A DNA stretch of 64,000 nucleotides from an uncultured delta proteobacterium (GTDB lineage: Bacteria; Desulfobacterota; Binatia; Binatales; Binataceae), in the NCBI GenBank assembly GCA_963765675.1, contig CAVXXK010000001.1, positions 1,152,001 through 1,216,000 of the forward strand, given 5' to 3'. The notes beneath the pieces are model-generated. The model did no database searches. It was given only the letters and a program-made list of their open reading frames with translations, and had not been told where the DNA came from. Position 1 is the stretch's first letter, and each line of letters starts with the position of its first letter. Positions 1,646-20,189 of the stretch are shown here, in pieces. A program made the translations under genes and the position numbers.

Positions 1646-3193
1646 ATGAGATTGGGGGCGTTCGCCCTCTTGCTGACCATTGGATGCGCCGCCTGCGGCG
1701 GCTCAAGCTCTTCAGGCGGTTCCTCTGGAGGTGGCGGGACGTCAGCCACTTTCAAGCCAGGGCCCTGTCCCGCTCCCGAAGCAGACGCATTGGCGAAACT
1801 CAACGCGAGTTGCGGAACGCTGACGGCTCCGCAAAATCGCAACAAGCTGAGTGAAGGCAAAGTTCAACTGCCGGTCGCGATCATTCCTTCGCAGAGTCAG
1901 CCGGCGCAGTCGGATCCGATCGTTTACATGGCGGGCGGTCCGGGAGCCAACGCCATCGGGCAGGCGCAAGATCTCGTCAACGTAGGCCTCAACCAGAAGC
2001 GCGACCTCATCATCATGAATCAGCGCGGGGTTGCCTACACCGTGCCCAATTTGGCGTGTCCGGAAATCGATATGGCCTTCGCCACCGCGGTTGGACTGCC
2101 TTACGATTCGCCGGACCACAAGACTCTGCACGTCGCGGCGACCAAGGCATGCCACGATCGGCTCGTAGGTCAGGGAATCGATCTGAGCAACTTCAACACC
2201 GCTGAAAACGAAGCCGACTTCGACGATCTGCGCAAAGCCCTCAAGATCAAGCAGTGGGACGTATACGGATTGTCCTATGGCACCGATCTCGCGCTCAGCC
2301 TGATGCGCGACTATCCGGATGACATCCGCGCTGTGATCATCGATGCGGTCCTGCCTCCCAGCGCGGTGAGTCTGGGATGGACGTGGACCAACGAGAATGA
2401 GGCCATCAACAACATCTTCCGCGCGTGCGCCAATCAGCCAGCCTGCGCCACCAAGTATGGCGATCTGAGCGCGCAATTCACGGCGCAGGTCCAGCAACTC
2501 GAAGCCACTCCGGTGACGTTAACGGTGACGATCCCGGGAACCGAGACGACTACGCCGGTGGTGCTCGACGGCGGCGCGATACTCAATTGGATAGGGTCGC
2601 TTCCAGATCCCGTGGTGCCAATAGCTTCCATTCCGGCGGCGATCGCAGAGTTGGTAGGGGGCCAGCCGACACAAATCGCCGAGGCGCGGGCCGTCGCCGC
2701 GAACCCTGCCGTGATCGGAGCAGTCGGCTACGGGCTTTTTTATGGTGTGATCTGCAGTGAGTGGATTCCATTTGAGCCCACCTCTCAGATTCTGGTGCAG
2801 GGACAACTGGCTTTCCCAGCCTATCCACAGAGCGTCCTGTCCCAGCCGCCGGGGTTGCCGTTTATGACCCAAGATTGCGCGGTGTGGGACGTTCCGTCAG
2901 CGTCTGGATCTGTGCGTCAGGTCACGGTTAGCTCAATACCCACGCTTGTGCTCAACGGAAGCTTCGACGGAAAAAGCGCCCCGCAGTGGGGCATCTATGC
3001 TGCCGGCACTCTCCAGAATTCGACTACGGTTACCGTTCCGAGCTCCGGACATGGAGCGCTGTTCCTGATCCAATTGCCGCCTGATGTACCGGCAAGGGCA
3101 TGCATCGAGGGCGTCGTGGCCTCGTTCCTCTCGAATCCGATCGCCCCGGACACCAGTTGTGTTGCGGGGTTGACTGACGTGCCGTTTAACTGA
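1646..3193 (+). CDS. Lipoprotein alpha/beta hydrolase, tripeptidyl-aminopeptidase (TAP)-like
   Basis: Lipobox AACGG, GGPG, nucleophile GLSYG, FDGKS Asp, SGHG His; ATG at 1646 chosen over TTG at 1613. Confidence 0.88.
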   Translation: MRLGAFALLLTIGCAACGGSSSSGGSSGGGGTSATFKPGPCPAPEADALAKLNASCGTLTAPQNRNKLSEGKVQLPVAIIPSQSQPAQSDPIVYMAGGPGANAIGQAQDLVNVGLNQKRDLIIMNQRGVAYTVPNLACPEIDMAFATAVGLPYDSPDHKTLHVAATKACHDRLVGQGIDLSNFNTAENEADFDDLRKALKIKQWDVYGLSYGTDLALSLMRDYPDDIRAVIIDAVLPPSAVSLGWTWTNENEAINNIFRACANQPACATKYGDLSAQFTAQVQQLEATPVTLTVTIPGTETTTPVVLDGGAILNWIGSLPDPVVPIASIPAAIAELVGGQPTQIAEARAVAANPAVIGAVGYGLFYGVICSEWIPFEPTSQILVQGQLAFPAYPQSVLSQPPGLPFMTQDCAVWDVPSASGSVRQVTVSSIPTLVLNGSFDGKSAPQWGIYAAGTLQNSTTVTVPSSGHGALFLIQLPPDVPARACIEGVVASFLSNPIAPDTSCVAGLTDVPFN

Positions 3194-14870: not shown

Positions 14871-15285
14871 GATTCAGTACCCTCCGTTTTTCTATGCGTC
14901 TTCAGAATGACCGAAAATTCGACGGAGCGGACTCCCGCGTTTGGGGTTGCGCCGGCTTTAGGCAAATGGCCGATCGTTTTGTTGCGCCGGTTAGCCAAGA
15001 AAACGCATGACTGTGTATGCGGTCGCCGTCCATCTGTCAATGTGCAGTGCGTCAATCACAGTTCCCGACCGTTCCGCGGATCGGACCAATCCGCAGCACA
15101 TTTGGCGCGCATGAAAGTAGATTATTCGACGCTCACTGGCAGCGAATTGAGTTCTTGCCGGAATAATCAATTGTCGTGATACCGCCATGAAACTACGGGC
15201 CGTCTCGACGCAAGTCCGGCGGAATTCTATCCTTGCCCCGAATGAGGTCAATTCACCATTTGCAGTCGCTCTCCGAAGAGGCCCT

Positions 15286-15807
15286 ATGTCGAAGTTGATG
15301 CTTGCTTTCGGCTCATTCGTGATCGGTGCAATCTCCACGTTCGTCGTACTTACCGGCAGTCAGGCATTGATCTGGGCGCAATCTCCTGCGGCATCATCGT
15401 CATCGTCGCCGTTAGGTTCAGCTGTACGCCCCGAGACGATTTCGGTAGACGCGCGAGTACCCAGGGTTCCAGAAATTCCGGTACGGTTCGCCAACCTGTC
15501 GTTCCCGGCTAACCAATCGGAGCAGCTTGACGGTCTGAGTTGCACGGGATGCGCCTTCAGCGATCCGTTGCTCATCTATGGAGGGGGCGAATACCAGTTG
15601 ATCAATACGACCTTCGCCAGAGGCACCCTACGGATCCAACTCGTAGGTGCGGCACAGAACACGTTCAATCTTCTCCAGCAGCTTGGACTTCTCCGTGAAC
15701 CGTCCTTCAAAGGACGGGTGCCGAAGTCCAAGGTGCCTCCCACTCAGACGGTCGAGCTCGACAAAACGATTACGATCAGCCTGAGCAGCGTTCACAGCCA
15801 GCGATAA
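15286..15807 (+). CDS. Hypothetical exported / membrane-anchored protein
   Basis: Hydrophobic N-terminus after ATG 15286 (GAGG RBS); LDGLSCTGCAF..LIYGGG core. Confidence 0.6.
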   Translation: MSKLMLAFGSFVIGAISTFVVLTGSQALIWAQSPAASSSSSPLGSAVRPETISVDARVPRVPEIPVRFANLSFPANQSEQLDGLSCTGCAFSDPLLIYGGGEYQLINTTFARGTLRIQLVGAAQNTFNLLQQLGLLREPSFKGRVPKSKVPPTQTVELDKTITISLSSVHSQR

Positions 15808-16035
15808 AATCGCAGAGCGCTTTTTGTCCGCAGAGCGCACTCCGGCGACAGCCAAAACTGTCGACCCGGGCGAGTTTTGAGCGATTGGCCGAATTTAGAC
15901 GTTGAAGTGGATAGAAATTGCCAATGCGAAGGGACCAGTCGCGGCTAGGTATGAGGGCATGATTGAGACGATTCGGCGGCTAACATTAAGTTAGCTAAAC
16001 TTGCTTTAAGCTGAAGTTCTTTGTCAATCCCGCTG

Positions 16036-16120
16036 AAAGAAAGGAGCGCCAGCCGTAACCCATCTTAGCAGGAGGAGGAACGGACTGGCGCCCCGGCCCT
16101 CGGTATTACCTCGGGACCAT
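16036..16120 (-). ncRNA. Candidate two-hairpin antisense sRNA with anti-Shine-Dalgarno loop targeting the RBS of 16763
   Basis: Minus strand: hairpin 1 GGUCCCGAGGUAAUACCGAGGGCC; hairpin 2 GGGGCGCCAG(U)CCGU / ACGGCUGGCGCUCC then UUUCUUU; loop UCCUCCUCCUGCUAAGAUGGGUU; extended -10 TG-C-TAGATT just upstream. Confidence 0.7.
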
Positions 16121-16125
16121 CAAAC

Positions 16126-16155
16126 AATCTAGCAAACGCGGTAATCTGTCAGCAA
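16126..16155 (-). promoter_or_regulatory. Putative promoter of the candidate sRNA
   Basis: Minus strand TTGCTG, 18-nt spacer ending TGC, then TAGATT (extended -10). Confidence 0.5.
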
Positions 16156-16441
16156 TCGGGCGAACCAAAGTTTAAACCCGCGCATTTCTACCGAACTCTC
16201 AACCGGCGTTGCGATCTGTTCTTAGAATTTGGTCGAGAGGTTAGGTACGTCGCCTCAAATCAAAATTGTTGGTAAATACGATCGTAACTTCGTTCAGGCA
16301 AGTTGTTTCTAGGGTATGCCTATCCAAACTGGCCACTGCTCTATAAACGGCGAGATGTATTTTAATATGCCGTCCCATCACAAAATTCATCGCAACGTCG
16401 CAAAAGTAAGATATCAGGAAAAAAACGGTTTTTTAGCTGAT

Positions 16442-16450
16442 TGTTATAAT
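16442..16450 (+). promoter_or_regulatory. Consensus extended -10 (TGTTATAAT) upstream of the Cys-rich gene trio
   Basis: Exact TGnTATAAT in an AT-rich intergenic region. Confidence 0.45.
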
Positions 16451-16762
16451 AATTGTCACTGAGTAGGTGATACCTAGATGAAACCGTATCCCCGTAGGGG
16501 CTTTCGCTCTGTTATTGGGTGTGTAAGAGGAAAACAAAGAGACAATTTTTATGACATTTCGATCACAATTTGTGCTTTGACTCATGCTTGCAACACGGCT
16601 GTACAAGTGGGATAAACCACGAGACGCAACGAAAACACGCGAAAGAAGTGCAAGAGCAAGCCTTAAGCATTCCTGAGCGCTTCGGAGGTTCGCAAGCAGA
16701 AAAGACACCGAATTAGTTTTAGCTCTAATAGTCCGTAACCCATAGCAGGAGGAGGAACGGAA

Positions 16763-17446
16763 ATGCGTAAGAGCCCAATCAACCAAACGGTCTTAGCATG
16801 GGCCGGCGTACTGGCGATAGCGCTGGGCGCCGTGATCTTGCTTGGACCAACAGCCCAGGCGGGTACGTTGCGCCGGGCTGGAACCAACCAAACCGGTTCA
16901 GGCGGTGCCGATCCTGGCACGTTCCTGACCGGTTATTTTGACACCGCACCTGGTTCCGAAGCATTTGGCGCCGGAGATAACGCTCTGCGGATCGAGAATC
17001 CGACGGCGGCCAACGGCAATCTGTGCGCGATGATCTACATCTTCGATGCGAGCGAAGAGCTCGGCGAATGTTGTGGATGTGTCCTGACTCCCAACCAACT
17101 GCTGCAGGATAGCGTTGACACTATTATCGGCAGCGCGTGGGAGATCAGCGGCGGGACCCCGGAGCAGGGCGTGATTCAGATCGTGAGTGCACTGCCCAAT
17201 GTGGGAACGACCTGCAACCCGGCGGCTGCCTACACCCCGACTGCGAACCTCAACGGCTGGGTGACCCATGCGCAGACGGTTGGCGGAATCACCGGCCTGA
17301 CTGAGGTGAGCCTGACGGATAACGGAGCAGCCGATGCGACTGAGGCGGCCTACCTCATCTCGACCTGCGGCGACATTCTGAGCAACGGCTCAGGCAAAGG
17401 TGACTGCACTTGTCCGACTCAGCCAGATGGAGTTCTCGCACCGTAG
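16763..17446 (+). CDS. Secreted 8-Cys protein of unknown function, copy A
   Basis: Very strong RBS AGGAGGAGG; Sec signal ending AQA; core NALRIENPT..NLCAMIYIFD..EELGECCGC.LTPNQL...GSGKGDCTCP. Confidence 0.9.
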   Translation: MRKSPINQTVLAWAGVLAIALGAVILLGPTAQAGTLRRAGTNQTGSGGADPGTFLTGYFDTAPGSEAFGAGDNALRIENPTAANGNLCAMIYIFDASEELGECCGCVLTPNQLLQDSVDTIIGSAWEISGGTPEQGVIQIVSALPNVGTTCNPAAAYTPTANLNGWVTHAQTVGGITGLTEVSLTDNGAADATEAAYLISTCGDILSNGSGKGDCTCPTQPDGVLAP

Positions 17447-18921
17447 CCGCGGGCAGTACACGAGGACACGGGAGGAACAAATTATGAAAAGTAAGTCTAT
17501 AAAGAGTATGGCTCTGGCATGGACGGGCGCTCTGGCCATCGCGTTTGGGGCTGCGCTCGTCCTGAGTCCGACTGCCTATGCGCAGCCGGGTACTTTCCTG
17601 ACGGGGACTTTCGATCTTACGGCCGGTTCCGAAGCATTTGGCGCAGGAGATAATGCTCTGCGGATCGAGAACCCCACCGCGGCAAATGGCGATCTGTGCG
17701 CGATGGTCTACATCTTCGATGCGAGCGAAGAGCTCGGCGAATGTTGCGGTTGTGCCCTAACCCCGAACCAGCTGCTCTCGGACAGCGTTGAGACAATCCT
17801 GAGCGACACCTGGGAGATCAACGGTGGGACACCTGCGCAGGGCGTGATCCAGATCGTGAGCGCACTGCCCAATGCGGGGGCGGACTCGTGCAACCCTGCG
17901 AAGGCGTATACCCCGACCGCGAACCTTAACGGTTGGGTAACCCATGCGCAGAGAGTCGGCAGCGTTGGCGGTCTTACCGAGGTGAGCCTGACTGACAACG
18001 GAGCGGCCGACGCGACCGAGGCATCATTCCTGATCGCGGAGTGCGGAGACATCCTGTCCAATGGCTCGGGCTTTGGGAGCTGTGCTTGCCCGACTCAGCC
18101 CGACGGGACGTATACCGAAACCGCGGTGAAGACTGCCGGAACCGCAGTGAAGACAAAGCTAAGCAAAGTCAAGGCGTCCAATAGTCATGGCGTCGGAGTG
18201 AGATGACGATCGGTGCGCTACGCGTACGCTCAAGGAGGAATCGAAATGCGTAAAAGTTCATTTAATCAAACGGTTGCAACATGGGCCGGCGTACTGGCGA
18301 TTGCACTGGGCGCCGTGATCATGCTTGGACCAACGGCCCAAGCGGGTACGTTGCGTCGGGCCGGGACCAACCAAACCGGTTCAGGCGGTGCCGATCCTGG
18401 CACGTTCCTGACCGGTTATTTTGACACCGCACCTGGTTCCGAAGCATTTGGCGCCGGAGATAACGCTCTGCGGATCGAGAATCCGACGGCGGCCAACGGC
18501 AATCTGTGCGCGATGATCTACATCTTCGATGCGAGCGAAGAGCTCGGCGAATGTTGTGGATGTGTCCTGACTCCCAACCAACTGCTGCAGGATAGCGTTG
18601 ACACTATCATCGGCAGCGCGTGGGAGATCAGCGGCGGGACCCCGGAGCAGGGCGTGATTCAGATCGTGAGTGCACTGCCCAATGTGGGAACGACCTGCAA
18701 CCCGGCGGCTGCCTACACCCCGACTGCGAACCTCAACGGCTGGGTGACCCATGCGCAGACGGTTGGCGGAATCACCGGCCTGACTGAGGTGAGCCTGACG
18801 GATAACGGAGCAGCCGATGCGACTGAGGCGGCCTACCTCATCTCGACCTGCGGCGACATTCTGAGCAACGGCTCAGGCAAAGGTGACTGCACTTGCCCGA
18901 CTCAGCCAGATGGAGTTCTCG
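16883..18921 (+). repeat. 556-bp near-identical direct repeat (16883-17438 and 18366-18921)
   Basis: Only two synonymous differences seen by eye (ATT/ATC, TGT/TGC). Confidence 0.9.
17484..18206 (+). CDS. Secreted 8-Cys protein of unknown function, divergent copy B with Lys-rich tail
   Basis: RBS GGAGG, ATG at 17484; signal ending AYA; same Cys pattern; tail TETAVKTAGTAVKTKLSKVKAS. Confidence 0.9.
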   Translation: MKSKSIKSMALAWTGALAIAFGAALVLSPTAYAQPGTFLTGTFDLTAGSEAFGAGDNALRIENPTAANGDLCAMVYIFDASEELGECCGCALTPNQLLSDSVETILSDTWEINGGTPAQGVIQIVSALPNAGADSCNPAKAYTPTANLNGWVTHAQRVGSVGGLTEVSLTDNGAADATEASFLIAECGDILSNGSGFGSCACPTQPDGTYTETAVKTAGTAVKTKLSKVKASNSHGVGVR

Positions 18922-18926
18922 ACTAG
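18246..18926 (+). CDS. Secreted 8-Cys protein of unknown function, copy C (mature part identical to A except last residues)
   Basis: RBS AAGGAGG, ATG at 18246; 18366-18921 matches 16883-17438. Confidence 0.9.
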   Translation: MRKSSFNQTVATWAGVLAIALGAVIMLGPTAQAGTLRRAGTNQTGSGGADPGTFLTGYFDTAPGSEAFGAGDNALRIENPTAANGNLCAMIYIFDASEELGECCGCVLTPNQLLQDSVDTIIGSAWEISGGTPEQGVIQIVSALPNVGTTCNPAAAYTPTANLNGWVTHAQTVGGITGLTEVSLTDNGAADATEAAYLISTCGDILSNGSGKGDCTCPTQPDGVLD

Positions 18927-18942
18927 AGCGTTCTCATGCGAA

Positions 18943-18973
18943 GCCGCGCCGCCGGGCTTTTCCGGCGGCCGGC
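18943..18973 (+). terminator. GC-rich stem-loop after the Cys-rich trio (stabiliser or partial terminator, no U-tract)
   Basis: GCCG(C)GCCGCCGG-GCTTTT-CCGGCGGC-CGGC. Confidence 0.55.
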
Positions 18974-19013
18974 ATCGCAAACAGTGACGAAAATCGCAAC
19001 AGGAGATCAGACT

Positions 19014-20189
19014 TTGAATCATTTAAAGATCAGCAAGCTTATAGCAGTCGCTCTCCTTGCCGGCGTAGTCAGTTTCGGTACTGCCTCCTTGGGCGACGAT
19101 CGGCCGGTCGGTTCGGCACCGGCAGTGGCTCAAGTAGGCAATGTACAAATCAGCCTCGACAAAGTTGAACAGAGTTCGGGATCGAGCCTGACTCAAGCGC
19201 GCGGCAGAGTCCTCAACGCGCAGTATCAATACTATGTCGCGCAGCATGAAGCACTGGAAAAGCTGATCGACAAGGAAGTCCTCGAGCAACAGGCTCGCAA
19301 GGAGAAGGTAACCGTCGAAGAGCTCCTCCGCCGACACATCAAGGACACCATCAAGGATCCCAGCGAAGAGACGATGAGAATCTATTACATCGCCCTTCAA
19401 ACGGATCAGCCCTACTCTGATCTACGCGGCAAGATCCGCGACCATATTCGCGACTTGGAGGAGCGCAAGTTGGTCGCCGACTACGTCAAGTCGCTTCGCG
19501 CTCAAGACAAGATCCAGATCATGCTCGAACCTCCGCGAGAGGAGGTGGCTACCGGCGCCACGCCCACGATGGGACCGGCCGCCGCTCCGGTGACGGTGGT
19601 GGAATTTGCGGACTATCAATGCCCCTATTGCCGCGGCACCGAAGCCAATGTCGACAAACTCCGCGCGCAATTCAAGGATCAGGTGCGCTACTCATACCGC
19701 GACTTCCCCCTCCCCAATCATCAGTTCGCGGAAAAGGCTGCCGAGGCGTCCAGATGCGCGGCTGATCAGGGAAAATTTTGGCAGTACCACGATCTTCTGT
19801 TCACCGGCGATGGCAGCGACCTCAACGTAGCAGGTCTCAAGGCATTAGCGAGCAAGGAAAAACTCGACACCGCCAAGTTCGACCAGTGCCTGGACTCGAA
19901 CAAGGAACAAGCCGCAGTCCAAGCGGATCTTAAACAGGGTGAATCGCTAGGCGTCTCGGGAACTCCGAGCTTCTTTGTCAATGGTTATTTCATCAGTGGC
20001 TCGGTGACCTACGACACGCTGAGAGAACTGGTAGAGCAGCAGATTGCCGACGCGCATGCTGCGTCCGGTTCCACGATTGGAGAGCGATCCGGCACCGCGC
20101 ACTCGGCCAACAGCGCCGACTGTAATACGGCTCGCTCGGCCTCTATGGATCGCGCCGCGAGCGGGAAAATCTGCAGATTTCCTGGATAA
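19014..20189 (+). CDS. Exported DsbA-family thiol-disulfide oxidoreductase with N-terminal SurA-like helical domain
   Basis: VEFADYQCPYC, YRDFPL, cis-Pro GVSGTPSFFVNG; TTG start at 19014 after AGGAG. Confidence 0.9.
   Translation: MNHLKISKLIAVALLAGVVSFGTASLGDDRPVGSAPAVAQVGNVQISLDKVEQSSGSSLTQARGRVLNAQYQYYVAQHEALEKLIDKEVLEQQARKEKVTVEELLRRHIKDTIKDPSEETMRIYYIALQTDQPYSDLRGKIRDHIRDLEERKLVADYVKSLRAQDKIQIMLEPPREEVATGATPTMGPAAAPVTVVEFADYQCPYCRGTEANVDKLRAQFKDQVRYSYRDFPLPNHQFAEKAAEASRCAADQGKFWQYHDLLFTGDGSDLNVAGLKALASKEKLDTAKFDQCLDSNKEQAAVQADLKQGESLGVSGTPSFFVNGYFISGSVTYDTLRELVEQQIADAHAASGSTIGERSGTAHSANSADCNTARSASMDRAASGKICRFPG

What the first reader, a model, noticed from the sequence alone, without database searches (positions are those of the whole stretch)
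16036..16762. Unannotated anti-Shine-Dalgarno sRNA aimed at the neighbouring gene's RBS
Seen: 16053-16084 (ccgtaacccat-ctt-agcaggaggaggaacgga) duplicates 16733-16761 (ccgtaacccat-agcaggaggaggaacgga), the RBS of gene 16763: 29 of 29 matches apart from a 3-nt insertion. The upstream copy has no start codon after it. On the minus strand it is the loop of an intrinsic terminator (GGGGCGCCAG-U-CCGU / ACGG-CUGGCGCUCC + UUUCUUU), preceded by a second hairpin with tandem GA mismatches and an extended -10 (TGCTAGATT) about 5 nt upstream. The target itself can fold UCCGU/ACGGA with the SD in the loop, which suits loop-loop kissing. The RBSs of copies B (GGAGGAAC) and C (AGGAGGAA) are only partly complementary. 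Inference: an ~85-nt divergently transcribed sRNA that represses translation of the 8-Cys operon and may tune the A:B:C ratio. The UCCUCCUCC loop recalls the alphaproteobacterial cuckoo/ar14 sRNAs, but the dedicated cis-linked target looks new to me.
Basis: partly seen in the sequence, partly recalled or inferred. Interest (0 to 1): 0.85.

Follow-up and report, generated by a model that had tools for sequence, protein, structure and literature searches.

The report
Small antisense RNA against neighbour's RBS
A conserved, roughly 84-base gene for a small RNA sits beside an operon for secreted cysteine-rich proteins, and its hairpin loop is the exact complement of that operon's first ribosome-binding site, so it most likely switches off translation of that gene; no transcript has been seen yet.

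Summary
Window 16053-16084 repeats the leader and RBS of gene A (16733-16761): 29 of 29 bases apart from a 3-nt insertion. This is more than chance gives, and the pair is unique in the 4.5-Mb genome.

The upstream copy is not a stray remnant. It is the loop of a two-hairpin element that a covariance model finds in six copies:
- the window;
- four copies in one other genome of the same family (G156);
- one metagenome contig syntenic with the window.

In the five copies whose flank is visible, the element lies 230-640 nt upstream of a close 8-Cys paralog and points away from it. The fold works on the minus strand: 133 of 138 pair cells, 28 of them G·U. On the plus strand it works poorly: 107 of 138. 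A U-rich tail follows the stem and a conserved TGn -10-like box precedes it.

Between the orthologous loci the element is 82% identical, while the flanks are 24-26% identical. Gene A's RBS is the best predicted partner among 10,782 crude ORF starts. Genes B and C are unremarkable.

Rfam has no match, and it is not a cuckoo/ar14 RNA. The nearest known architecture is the divergently encoded type I antitoxin sRNAs (IstR-1, OhsC, OrzO), but the target here is a 227-aa secreted protein.

No RNA data could be found, so transcription and repression remain inferred.

The parts
16037..16120 (-). Predicted small RNA, about 84 nt. The 5' end is inferred from the -10 box and the 3' end from the U tract.
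   Evidence: Covariance model R1 matches 16031-16126 (-) at 107.7 bits. The block is 82% identical to the orthologous locus L043, against 24-26% for the flanks. The ends are inferred and not mapped.
16095..16118 (-). Hairpin 1: GUCC/GGGC and GG/CC helices around a purine-rich 2x2 internal loop.
   Evidence: Helix 1 is paired in 97.2% of cells over 6 copies, including a U·G pair kept in 6 of 6.
16043..16094 (-). Hairpin 2: a terminator-like stem of 14 bp with one bulge, enclosing the 23-nt loop 16057-16079.
   Evidence: Helix 2 is paired in 95.8% of cells. One pair alternates G-C and A-U (3 copies each), and a G·U pair is kept in 5 of 6 copies.
16036..16042 (-). U-rich tail (UUUCUUU) directly after hairpin 2.
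   Evidence: By my reading of the aligned rows, 5 of the 6 copies have a U-rich run here; L045 does not.
16053..16084 (-). Anti-RBS segment, the complement of gene A's leader. It has an 18-nt block against AGCAGGAGGAGGAACGGA and an 11-nt block against CCGTAACCCAT, separated by a 3-nt bulge.
   Evidence: The duplex with gene A's leader is -56.6 kcal/mol, rank 1 of 10,782. The core UUCCUCCUCCUGCU is identical in 5 of 6 copies and carries one C-to-U change in L044.
16126..16134 (-). Promoter-like extended -10 (TGCTAGATT) inside the conserved box CGCGTTTGCTAGA.
   Evidence: Alignments. TGC directly before the -10 hexamer is present in 5 of 6 copies; L045 lacks it. The box is unique in the genome. 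Its function is inferred.
16150..16155 (-). -35-like TTGCTG, 18 nt upstream of the -10.
   Evidence: A TTGNNG is present in all six copies (cut at the contig end in L075), but its spacing to the -10 varies from 16 to 20 nt, so this assignment is weak.
16733..16765 (+). Predicted target: leader, SD and start codon of 8-Cys gene A.
   Evidence: The leader motif CGTAACCC...AGCAGGAGGAGGAA recurs, with small variants in L042_A, L045_A and L044_down, in 6 'first-gene' leaders of the window and G156.
16763..17446 (+). Gene A, a 227-aa secreted 8-Cys protein.
   Evidence: No Pfam family. Homologs are all 'hypothetical'. The AF2 model has mean pLDDT 78.6 and is a beta-sandwich, with weak Foldseek matches to TM1070 and the sensory rhodopsin transducer.
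17484..18206 (+). Gene B, a paralog. Its RBS is not specifically complementary.
   Evidence: rank 663.
18246..18926 (+). Gene C, 98% identical to A at protein level but with a different leader.
   Evidence: (98% identity), (rank 900).
18936..20189 (+). Last gene of the cluster: SurA_N-like plus DsbA/thioredoxin-like protein.
   Evidence: Thioredoxin_4 1e-33, DSBA 2.6e-20, SurA_N_3 1.7e-08.

Best explanation
Window 16120-16037 (minus strand) is the gene of an approximately 84-nt regulatory RNA. It is transcribed away from the 8-Cys operon from its own promoter and ends at its own hairpin plus U tract. The large loop and upper stem of that terminator hairpin carry a 29-nt complement of gene A's leader, SD and the bases up to -2 of the start codon.

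The RNA pairs with the gene A mRNA, covers the ribosome-binding site, blocks initiation and probably exposes the duplex to RNase. This lowers synthesis of the first secreted 8-Cys protein, while the near-identical copy C, which has another leader, escapes.

The long complementarity, and the absence of a detectable Hfq gene, suggest antisense-type pairing without a chaperone. The RNA gene most likely arose from a duplicated copy of the target's own leader in this tandemly duplicating gene family.

Shown here: the sequence repeat, the conserved strand-specific fold, the conserved position, and the uniqueness of the target site. Inferred: transcription, the RNA ends, pairing in vivo, and the direction of the effect.
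For: 1. The repeat is real, non-random and unique in the genome.

2. The element is conserved as a unit.
- Model R1, built from 4 copies, found a fifth copy that was not used to build it (G156 C1, 84 bits) and a sixth on metagenome contig L075 (104.5 bits).
- L075 also carries orthologs of the window's two upstream genes.
- L043 repeats the window's gene order as judged from ORF sizes.

3. Footprint between the window and L043: RNA block 82% identical without gaps, RBS 85%, flanks 24-26%.

4. Strand.
- RNAalifold gives -28.17 kcal/mol on the minus strand and -16.81 on the plus strand.
- 133 of 138 pair cells are standard on the minus strand, 28 of them G·U. On the plus strand 107 of 138 are standard, with 2 G·U.
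- Four G·U positions are kept in 4 to 6 of the 6 copies, and one pair alternates G-C and A-U.
- Sliding the partners drops pairing from 96.4% to 35-61%.

5. Ends. A U-rich tail follows the stem in 5 of 6 copies, and a TGn -10-like box in a conserved 13-nt motif precedes it in 5 of 6.

6. Position. All five copies with a visible flank lie 233-637 nt upstream of, and divergent from, an 8-Cys gene with the matching leader.

7. Target.
- The duplex with gene A's leader is -56.6 kcal/mol, against a background of -16.8 +/- 4.2 and a next-best value of -36.9. That is rank 1 of 10,782 crude ORF starts.
- All six A-type leaders score -34 to -57, against -22 to -33 for B- and C-type leaders.
- One position differs between the window and L043 in both the RNA and the leader so that pairing is kept: CCCAT with CCCAT versus CCCAA with CCCAA.

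8. No CsrA gene was found, which weakens the plus-strand GGA-hairpin reading. No Hfq gene was found, which fits extended antisense pairing.

9. There is no residual similarity of 15808-16762 to genes A or B; the best tblastn E-value is 0.35.
Against: - No transcript evidence exists: no RNA run was listed for this sequence.
- Only six copies from three sources are known, and they are closely related. L075 and L043 are almost identical over the RNA.
- Covariation is therefore weak. One pair changes on both sides, and the covariation score is reached by 80 of 500 shuffles and the percentage paired by 94 of 500.
- The alignment used for the pair counts was fitted to the model.
- A 23-nt loop is unusually large for an intrinsic terminator, and the scanner reports no terminator or promoter.
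- The -35 is poor and its spacing varies from 16 to 20 nt.
- Part of the anti-SD is predicted to pair inside the loop; unpaired probability is 0.0-0.7 over the CCUCCUCC stretch.
- Within G156 the RNAs show no preference for their own neighbour, so cis linkage may only reflect co-duplication.
- The shared change between RNA and leader could come from gene conversion rather than selection for pairing.
- The L045 copy looks decayed: 3 non-standard pairs in hairpin 2 plus one in the loop's inner helix, no U tail and a weak -10.
Confidence: 0.6

Rival explanations
1. The minus-strand RNA is real, but it is a general anti-SD regulator or sponge acting on many mRNAs with strong SDs. Alternatively it acts on the whole paralog family in trans, and the neighbouring gene is only one of many targets.
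For: The loop core is a generic anti-SD (CCUCCUCC). In G156 the four copies pair as well or better with non-neighbouring A-type leaders. One A-type gene there, L044_up, has no RNA gene within 3.3 kb upstream.
Against: Complementarity extends far beyond the SD, to 18 + 11 nt. In the window's genome that extended site exists once. The next-best ORF start is 20 kcal/mol weaker, and B and C rank 663 and 900. The RNA occurs only in genomes that hold the matching leader.
Confidence: 0.15
2. The functional molecule is the plus strand. A hairpin presenting an SD-like loop sits in a long 5' UTR of the operon or in the 3' UTR of the upstream gene. It would act as a ribosome standby or decoy site, or as a protein-binding site of the CsrA type.
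For: The copy has the same orientation as the operon in every locus. GGA-rich loops paired with a GGA-rich SD are typical of CsrA targets (my own knowledge). The operon's transcription start is not known.
Against: On the plus strand 31 of 138 pair cells fail, because conserved G·U pairs become A·C, and the consensus energy is 11 kcal/mol worse. The U-rich run lies on the wrong side for the plus strand. No CsrA gene was found in G000 (95.6% complete) or G156 (89%). Conserved TATAAT-like islands lie downstream of the element in the two long intergenic regions.
Confidence: 0.1
3. It is a non-functional leftover of a duplicated leader, from a lost fourth paralog or an aborted duplication. The hairpin and U tract would then serve at most as a terminator or insulator for stray divergent transcription.
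For: The family duplicates in tandem. The spacing between the two copies (680 nt) is close to the A-to-B repeat spacing of 673-676 nt. The L045 copy looks decayed.
Against: The stem arms, hairpin 1 and the promoter-like box are not part of any gene leader, yet they are conserved in six copies. The loop core is invariant while the surrounding intergenic DNA is 24-26% identical. No coding remnant is detectable. A plain terminator would not need to conserve a 14-nt anti-SD in its loop.
Confidence: 0.08

Closest known systems
Divergently encoded type I antitoxin sRNAs of E. coli: IstR-1/tisB, OhsC/shoB, OrzO/zorO and AgrB/dinQ. I read passages of PMC4147584 and PMC3919570.
   Same: The sRNA gene lies next to its target and is transcribed away from it without overlap. 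A short direct repeat in the DNA gives 18-21 nt of complementarity; here it is 18 + 11 nt. OrzO works without Hfq, and here no Hfq gene was found. zor-orz is tandemly duplicated, as these cassettes are in G156.
   Different: Those targets are small hydrophobic toxins (ZorO has 29 aa), and the pairing site lies in the 5' UTR away from the initiation region. Here the target is a 227-aa secreted beta-sandwich protein that heads a four-gene operon, and the pairing covers the SD itself. The pairing segment is at the 5' end of OrzO but in the terminator loop here. No toxicity is known or suggested.
Cuckoo / ar14 / CcsR-type anti-SD sRNAs of Alphaproteobacteria. I read the abstract and passages of PMC4615179.
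   Same: A C/U-rich anti-SD motif is presented in a hairpin loop, and RBS occlusion is the presumed mode of action.
   Different: That family has 2-4 adjacent hairpins that each carry CCUCCUCCC, has many trans targets and is found in Alphaproteobacteria. Here only one of the two hairpins carries the motif (CCUCCUCCU), the other loop is UAAUA, and complementarity extends to 29 nt of one leader. No Rfam family matched.
Classical antisense RNAs that start pairing from a loop (CopA/CopT, Sok/hok, RNA-OUT/IN).
   Same: Extended perfect complementarity, a loop-presented recognition sequence, and inhibition of translation initiation.
   Different: Those are encoded on the strand opposite their target at the same locus. 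This one is encoded 640 nt away from a duplicated copy of the target site. The target-side hairpin is weak and not conserved.

Membership tests
Cuckoo (ar14 / RSs0680 / CcsR) sRNA family | 2 to 4 adjacent hairpins, each loop carrying CCUCCUCCC (PMC4615179, abstract). | tested here: not met
   Of the two hairpins, only hairpin 2 carries a C/U-rich motif, and it reads CCUCCUCCU. The loop of hairpin 1 is UAAUA.
Cuckoo (ar14 / RSs0680 / CcsR) sRNA family | A match to the curated covariance models. | tested here: not met
   There was no Rfam 15 match over the whole window at gathering score. Over 15700-16900 at E up to 10, none of the three matches overlaps the element. Whether Rfam holds a model under each of these family names I did not check.
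Cuckoo (ar14 / RSs0680 / CcsR) sRNA family | Alphaproteobacterial host. | tested here: not met
   The record titles of the G156 copies read 'uncultured delta proteobacterium'. A homolog 89% identical to the target protein is labelled Candidatus Binataceae.
Type I toxin-antitoxin, divergent subclass (tisB-istR-1 type) | The sRNA is encoded adjacent to, divergent from and not overlapping its target gene. | tested here: met
   Five of five copies with a visible flank lie 233-637 nt from the start codon. Transcription itself is not shown.
Type I toxin-antitoxin, divergent subclass (tisB-istR-1 type) | Limited complementarity of about 18-21 nt to the target mRNA (PMC3919570). | tested here: met
   18 contiguous nt plus 11 nt across a 3-nt bulge.
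Type I toxin-antitoxin, divergent subclass (tisB-istR-1 type) | The target encodes a small hydrophobic toxic protein. | tested here: not met
   The target is 227 aa with a signal-peptide-like N-terminus and a beta-sandwich model. Toxicity is not testable here.
Type I toxin-antitoxin, divergent subclass (tisB-istR-1 type) | The pairing site lies in the 5' UTR away from the translation initiation site (PMC4147584). | tested here: not met
   Pairing covers the SD and reaches -2 of the ATG.
Rho-independent (intrinsic) terminator | A G+C-rich stem directly followed by a U tract. | tested here: met
   A 14-bp stem followed by UUUCUUU. A U-rich tail is present in 5 of 6 copies.
Rho-independent (intrinsic) terminator | A short loop, 3-8 nt in the scanner's rule. 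| tested here: not met
   The loop is 23 nt and the scanner found 0 sites. Inner pairs may shorten the effective loop.
Hfq-dependent trans-acting sRNAs | The host encodes Hfq. | tested here: not met
   PF17209 was not found in G000 (95.6% complete) or G156 (89%), while the control genomes gave hits. An incomplete genome does not prove absence.

The most novel reading that the evidence does not exclude
The RNA gene and its target form a portable, self-limiting cassette. The sRNA was born by duplication of its own target's leader inside a tandemly duplicating gene family, captured an antisense promoter and a clamp stem, and now travels and multiplies together with the gene (four cassettes in G156, and the same cassette in two genera).

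This would be a bacterial counterpart of plant microRNA birth from duplicated targets. It would also extend the divergent type I antitoxin layout to an ordinary secreted protein. One implication is that uncontrolled synthesis of this disulfide-rich protein is harmful. Another is that one of two 98%-identical copies (A, not C) is deliberately kept under RNA control.
Probability: 0.3. Interest if true: 0.65.

Novelty: new member of a known kind. Interest (0 to 1): 0.5.

Why it matters
If transcribed, this would be, as far as my searches show, a first described regulatory RNA family in this uncultured lineage. There was no Rfam match, and no paper in the searched library holds both 'Binatota' and 'small RNA'.

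Its target is readable directly from the DNA, which is rare for trans-encoded sRNAs and makes it easy to test in a heterologous reporter.

It also gives a clean example of how an sRNA can arise from a copy of its target's leader. And it shows that the 'divergent neighbour with about 20 nt of complementarity' layout, known from type I toxin-antitoxin pairs, may regulate ordinary envelope proteins too.

The mechanism itself, RBS occlusion by a C/U-rich loop, is standard.

Tried and rejected
- Rfam gave nothing relevant, at gathering score over the whole window or at E up to 10 over 15700-16900.
- The promoter/terminator scanner found 0 sites of each kind. Its rules exclude this hairpin.
- No RNA holder was listed for window 15800-17500. 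This is no evidence either way.
- The intergenic DNA was not found in 60 relatives, apart from one 26-nt match at E 0.007.
- Wider R1 searches added no copy.
  - 151 family genomes: two further matches of about 21 bits (E 0.07-0.08; L053, L054), which I did not inspect.
  - 47 genomes of G156's genus.
  - 151 class genomes: the one extra match, G045 at 24.8 bits, has no anti-SD loop and lies among unrelated ORFs, so I rejected it.
  - 28 loci around more distant 8-Cys genes with filters off: one match at E 0.86.
- The 21-nt degenerate pattern gave 9 genome-contig loci and 19 metagenome loci.
  - I gave 24 of these 28 to R1. One (L075) is a true copy and four scored 13-17 bits.
  - The remaining four (L058-L061) are the four known G156 copies, letter for letter.
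- In 11 more distant 8-Cys loci there is no repeat of the RBS leader of 11 nt or more within about 1.45 kb upstream on either strand. Three chance 10-mers were seen.
- Cognate versus non-cognate pairing in G156 shows no preference.
- The target-side hairpin is predicted in 3 of 6 leaders, with z-scores from -1.0 to +1.7.
- A small ORF after the upstream SD copy, read by eye from CTG: 15 codons in the window and L043, but an early stop in L042. I rejected it.
- The 49-aa minus-strand ORF 16241-16390: its start lies in a conserved island, but the frame is broken in L043, read by eye. I rejected it.
- Sigma-54 and ECF-type promoter readings of the conserved box were checked by eye. The spacings do not fit, so I rejected them.
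- (duplex energies with T instead of U and the whole RNA) gave unrealistic energies. I discarded it and replaced it.
- Supplementary files of the cited papers were not seen.
Full report
**1. The observation**

Bases 16053-16084 repeat 16733-16761, the leader and Shine-Dalgarno region that ends one base before the ATG of a 227-aa ORF (16763-17446). The match is 29 of 29 positions apart from a 3-nt insertion. The shared 18-mer occurs twice in the window at up to 3 mismatches. The expectation is 0.05, and 0 of 100 shuffles gave two. The repeat finder lists the pair.

In the whole genome (4,516,620 bases, 16 contigs) the 17-nt core has only these two sites at up to 2 mismatches. A BLAST of 16030-16135 against the genome finds only itself, the RBS (E 3.4e-5) and one 28-nt match outside the loop.

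On the minus strand the region folds into two hairpins at -45.4 kcal/mol, z = -2.93. The second hairpin is followed by UUUCUUU. TGCTAGATT lies at 16134-16126.

**2. Surroundings**

Three paralogous secreted 8-Cys genes follow: A (16763-17446), B (17484-18206) and C (18246-18926). A and C are 98% identical as proteins. After them comes a SurA_N plus DsbA-like gene.

The 8-Cys proteins have no Pfam family, and their homologs are all 'hypothetical'. An AlphaFold model built from 44 aligned sequences has mean pLDDT 78.6 and is a beta-sandwich. It gives only weak Foldseek matches, to TM1070 (E 2.5e-4) and the Anabaena sensory rhodopsin transducer. The target is therefore not a small hydrophobic toxin.

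**3. Conservation**

The intergenic DNA is not found in 60 relatives, including 10 genomes of the same genus. However, the protein has paralogs about 80% identical in one genome of another genus of the same family, G156. Upstream of three of those genes I found hairpins with the same loop and arms.

A covariance model (R1) built from the window and these three copies found:
- a fifth copy in G156 that was not used to build the model (84 bits);
- a sixth copy on a metagenome contig, L075 (104.5 bits).

L075 is syntenic with the window. It carries orthologs of the 206-aa gene at 15187-15807 and of the DUF4412 gene. L043 in G156 repeats the window's whole gene order, as judged from ORF sizes.

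No further copy was found in:
- 151 family genomes. Two matches of about 21 bits were not inspected.
- 47 genomes of G156's genus.
- 151 class genomes. One 24.8-bit match was inspected and rejected.
- 28 loci around more distant 8-Cys genes, searched with filters off.
- The other pattern hits in the genome and metagenome collections.

The close protein subfamily (E at most 1e-85) is itself found in only 2 of 165 family genomes. RNA and target subfamily therefore share the same narrow distribution.

**4. Footprint**

Between the window and L043, identity over alignment columns is as follows:

| Segment | Identity |
|---|---|
| RNA block 16037-16120 | 82%, no gaps |
| RBS leader | 85% |
| Promoter-like box | 67% |
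| Flanking intergenic segments (15900-16030, 16161-16340) | 26%, 24% |
| Remaining segments between RNA and RBS | 41-63% |

**5. Strand**

The consensus fold is -28.17 kcal/mol on the minus strand and -16.81 on the plus strand. Over six copies and 23 pairs, 133 of 138 cells are standard pairs on the minus strand, 28 of them G·U. On the plus strand 107 of 138 are standard, with 2 G·U. Four G·U positions are kept in 4 to 6 of the 6 copies. One pair alternates G-C (3 copies) and A-U (3 copies).

Sliding the 3' partners lowers pairing from 96.4% to 35-61%. Covariation proper is weak. One pair changes on both sides, and the covariation score is reached by 80 of 500 shuffles. The copies are too alike for more, and the alignment was fitted to the model.

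A U-rich run follows the stem in 5 of 6 copies. A conserved box, CGCGTTTGCTAGA, with a TGn-type -10, precedes hairpin 1 in 5 of 6 copies. The -35-like TTGNNG lies at a variable spacing of 16-20 nt. The L045 copy lacks the tail and the -10 and has three non-standard pairs in hairpin 2 plus one in the loop's inner helix, so it may be decaying.

**6. Target**

I used ViennaRNA duplexfold with the 32-nt loop segment against -40 to +10 of 10,782 crude ORF starts (first in-frame start of every ORF of at least 120 aa; these are not real gene calls). Results:
- gene A scores -56.6 kcal/mol and ranks first;
- the next best is -36.9;
- the background is -16.8 +/- 4.2;
- B ranks 663 and C ranks 900.

An earlier run of this computation used T instead of U, gave unrealistic energies and was discarded.

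All six 'first-gene' leaders of the window and G156 share a form of the CGTAACCC...AGCAGGAGGAGGAA motif and score -34 to -57 with all six RNAs. B- and C-type leaders score -22 to -33. There is no preference of an RNA for its own neighbour. One position differs between the window and L043 in both RNA and leader so that pairing is kept. This is a single event, and gene conversion could also produce it.

The leaders look open rather than structured. Part of the anti-SD is predicted to pair weakly within the loop, while the apical UGCUAA is free.

**7. Rivals**

*Plus-strand UTR element or CsrA site.* The fold is worse on that strand, the U-rich run is on the wrong side, and no CsrA gene was found in either genome.

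*Remnant of a lost paralog.* No coding similarity is left in 15808-16762; the best tblastn E-value is 0.35. The conserved arms, first hairpin and promoter-like box are not part of any leader.

*General anti-SD RNA.* The complementarity is much longer than an SD and is unique in the genome. Cross-regulation among A-type paralogs in G156 is nevertheless likely.

*Small ORF after the upstream SD copy.* It is not conserved: L042 has an early stop in the frame read from CTG (read by eye).

**8. Comparison with known systems**

There is no Rfam match.

The cuckoo family is defined by 2-4 hairpins that each carry CCUCCUCCC, in Alphaproteobacteria (PMC4615179, abstract and passages). That definition is not met here.

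The closest architecture is the divergent type I antitoxin sRNAs: istR-1, ohsC, orzO and agrB. They have 18-21 nt of complementarity, and OrzO is Hfq-independent (PMC4147584 and PMC3919570, passages). The layout and the extent of pairing are met. The nature of the target and the pairing site are not. No Hfq gene was found in either genome.

**9. Verdict**

The main inference, a divergently transcribed anti-RBS small RNA, is well supported by comparative evidence, but no transcript has been shown. The side claims (A:B:C tuning, kissing hairpins, cuckoo kinship, unprecedented layout) are not supported.

It is a new sRNA family of a known mechanistic kind. It has an unusually legible target and a likely origin from the target's own leader.

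Noticed in passing
window 16341-16470 and 16640-16732; L043 11640-11960; also L042, L045, L044: There are further conserved islands between the RNA gene and gene A. One is a TATAAT/TAGAAT-containing block (GTTAnAATAATTGTCAC), present only in the two long intergenic regions. Another, a block of about 170 nt including AAAGAAGTGCAAGAGC, is shared by five of the six A-type leaders compared (weak in L044_down). This is probably the operon's promoter and 5' UTR. There is no Rfam match.
   Followed up: partly
window 16763-17446 versus 18246-18926: Genes A and C encode 98% identical proteins but have different leaders. Only A carries the site complementary to the RNA. The same A/B/C arrangement is seen in L043.
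   Followed up: partly
G000 and G156: The whole block (large PT-rich protein, DUF4410, DUF4412, 206-aa gene, RNA, three 8-Cys genes, DsbA-like gene) is shared by two genomes of different genera. It was not found in 10 genomes of the window's own genus or in 46 genomes of G156's genus. That distribution is patchy enough to suggest horizontal transfer.
   Followed up: no
family-wide: The 8-Cys protein family is strongly expanded in some genomes, with up to 29 matches in G036 and 24 in G136. It is often fused into longer proteins. It has no Pfam family, and the model gives a TM1070/ASRT-like beta-sandwich.
   Followed up: partly
G000 and G156, whole genomes: Neither Hfq (PF17209) nor CsrA (PF02599) was found in either genome, although both families were found in the control genomes.
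   Followed up: no
L046 (G156 C2 76500-82500): An 8-Cys gene there appears broken into three fragments but still has an A-type leader (weak R1 hit at 2995-3028). No RNA copy was found beside it.
   Followed up: no
window 16010-16025; L043; L075: A short motif, AAGC(T)GAAGTT, is conserved just beyond the RNA's terminator in the three syntenic loci only. Its meaning is unknown.
   Followed up: no
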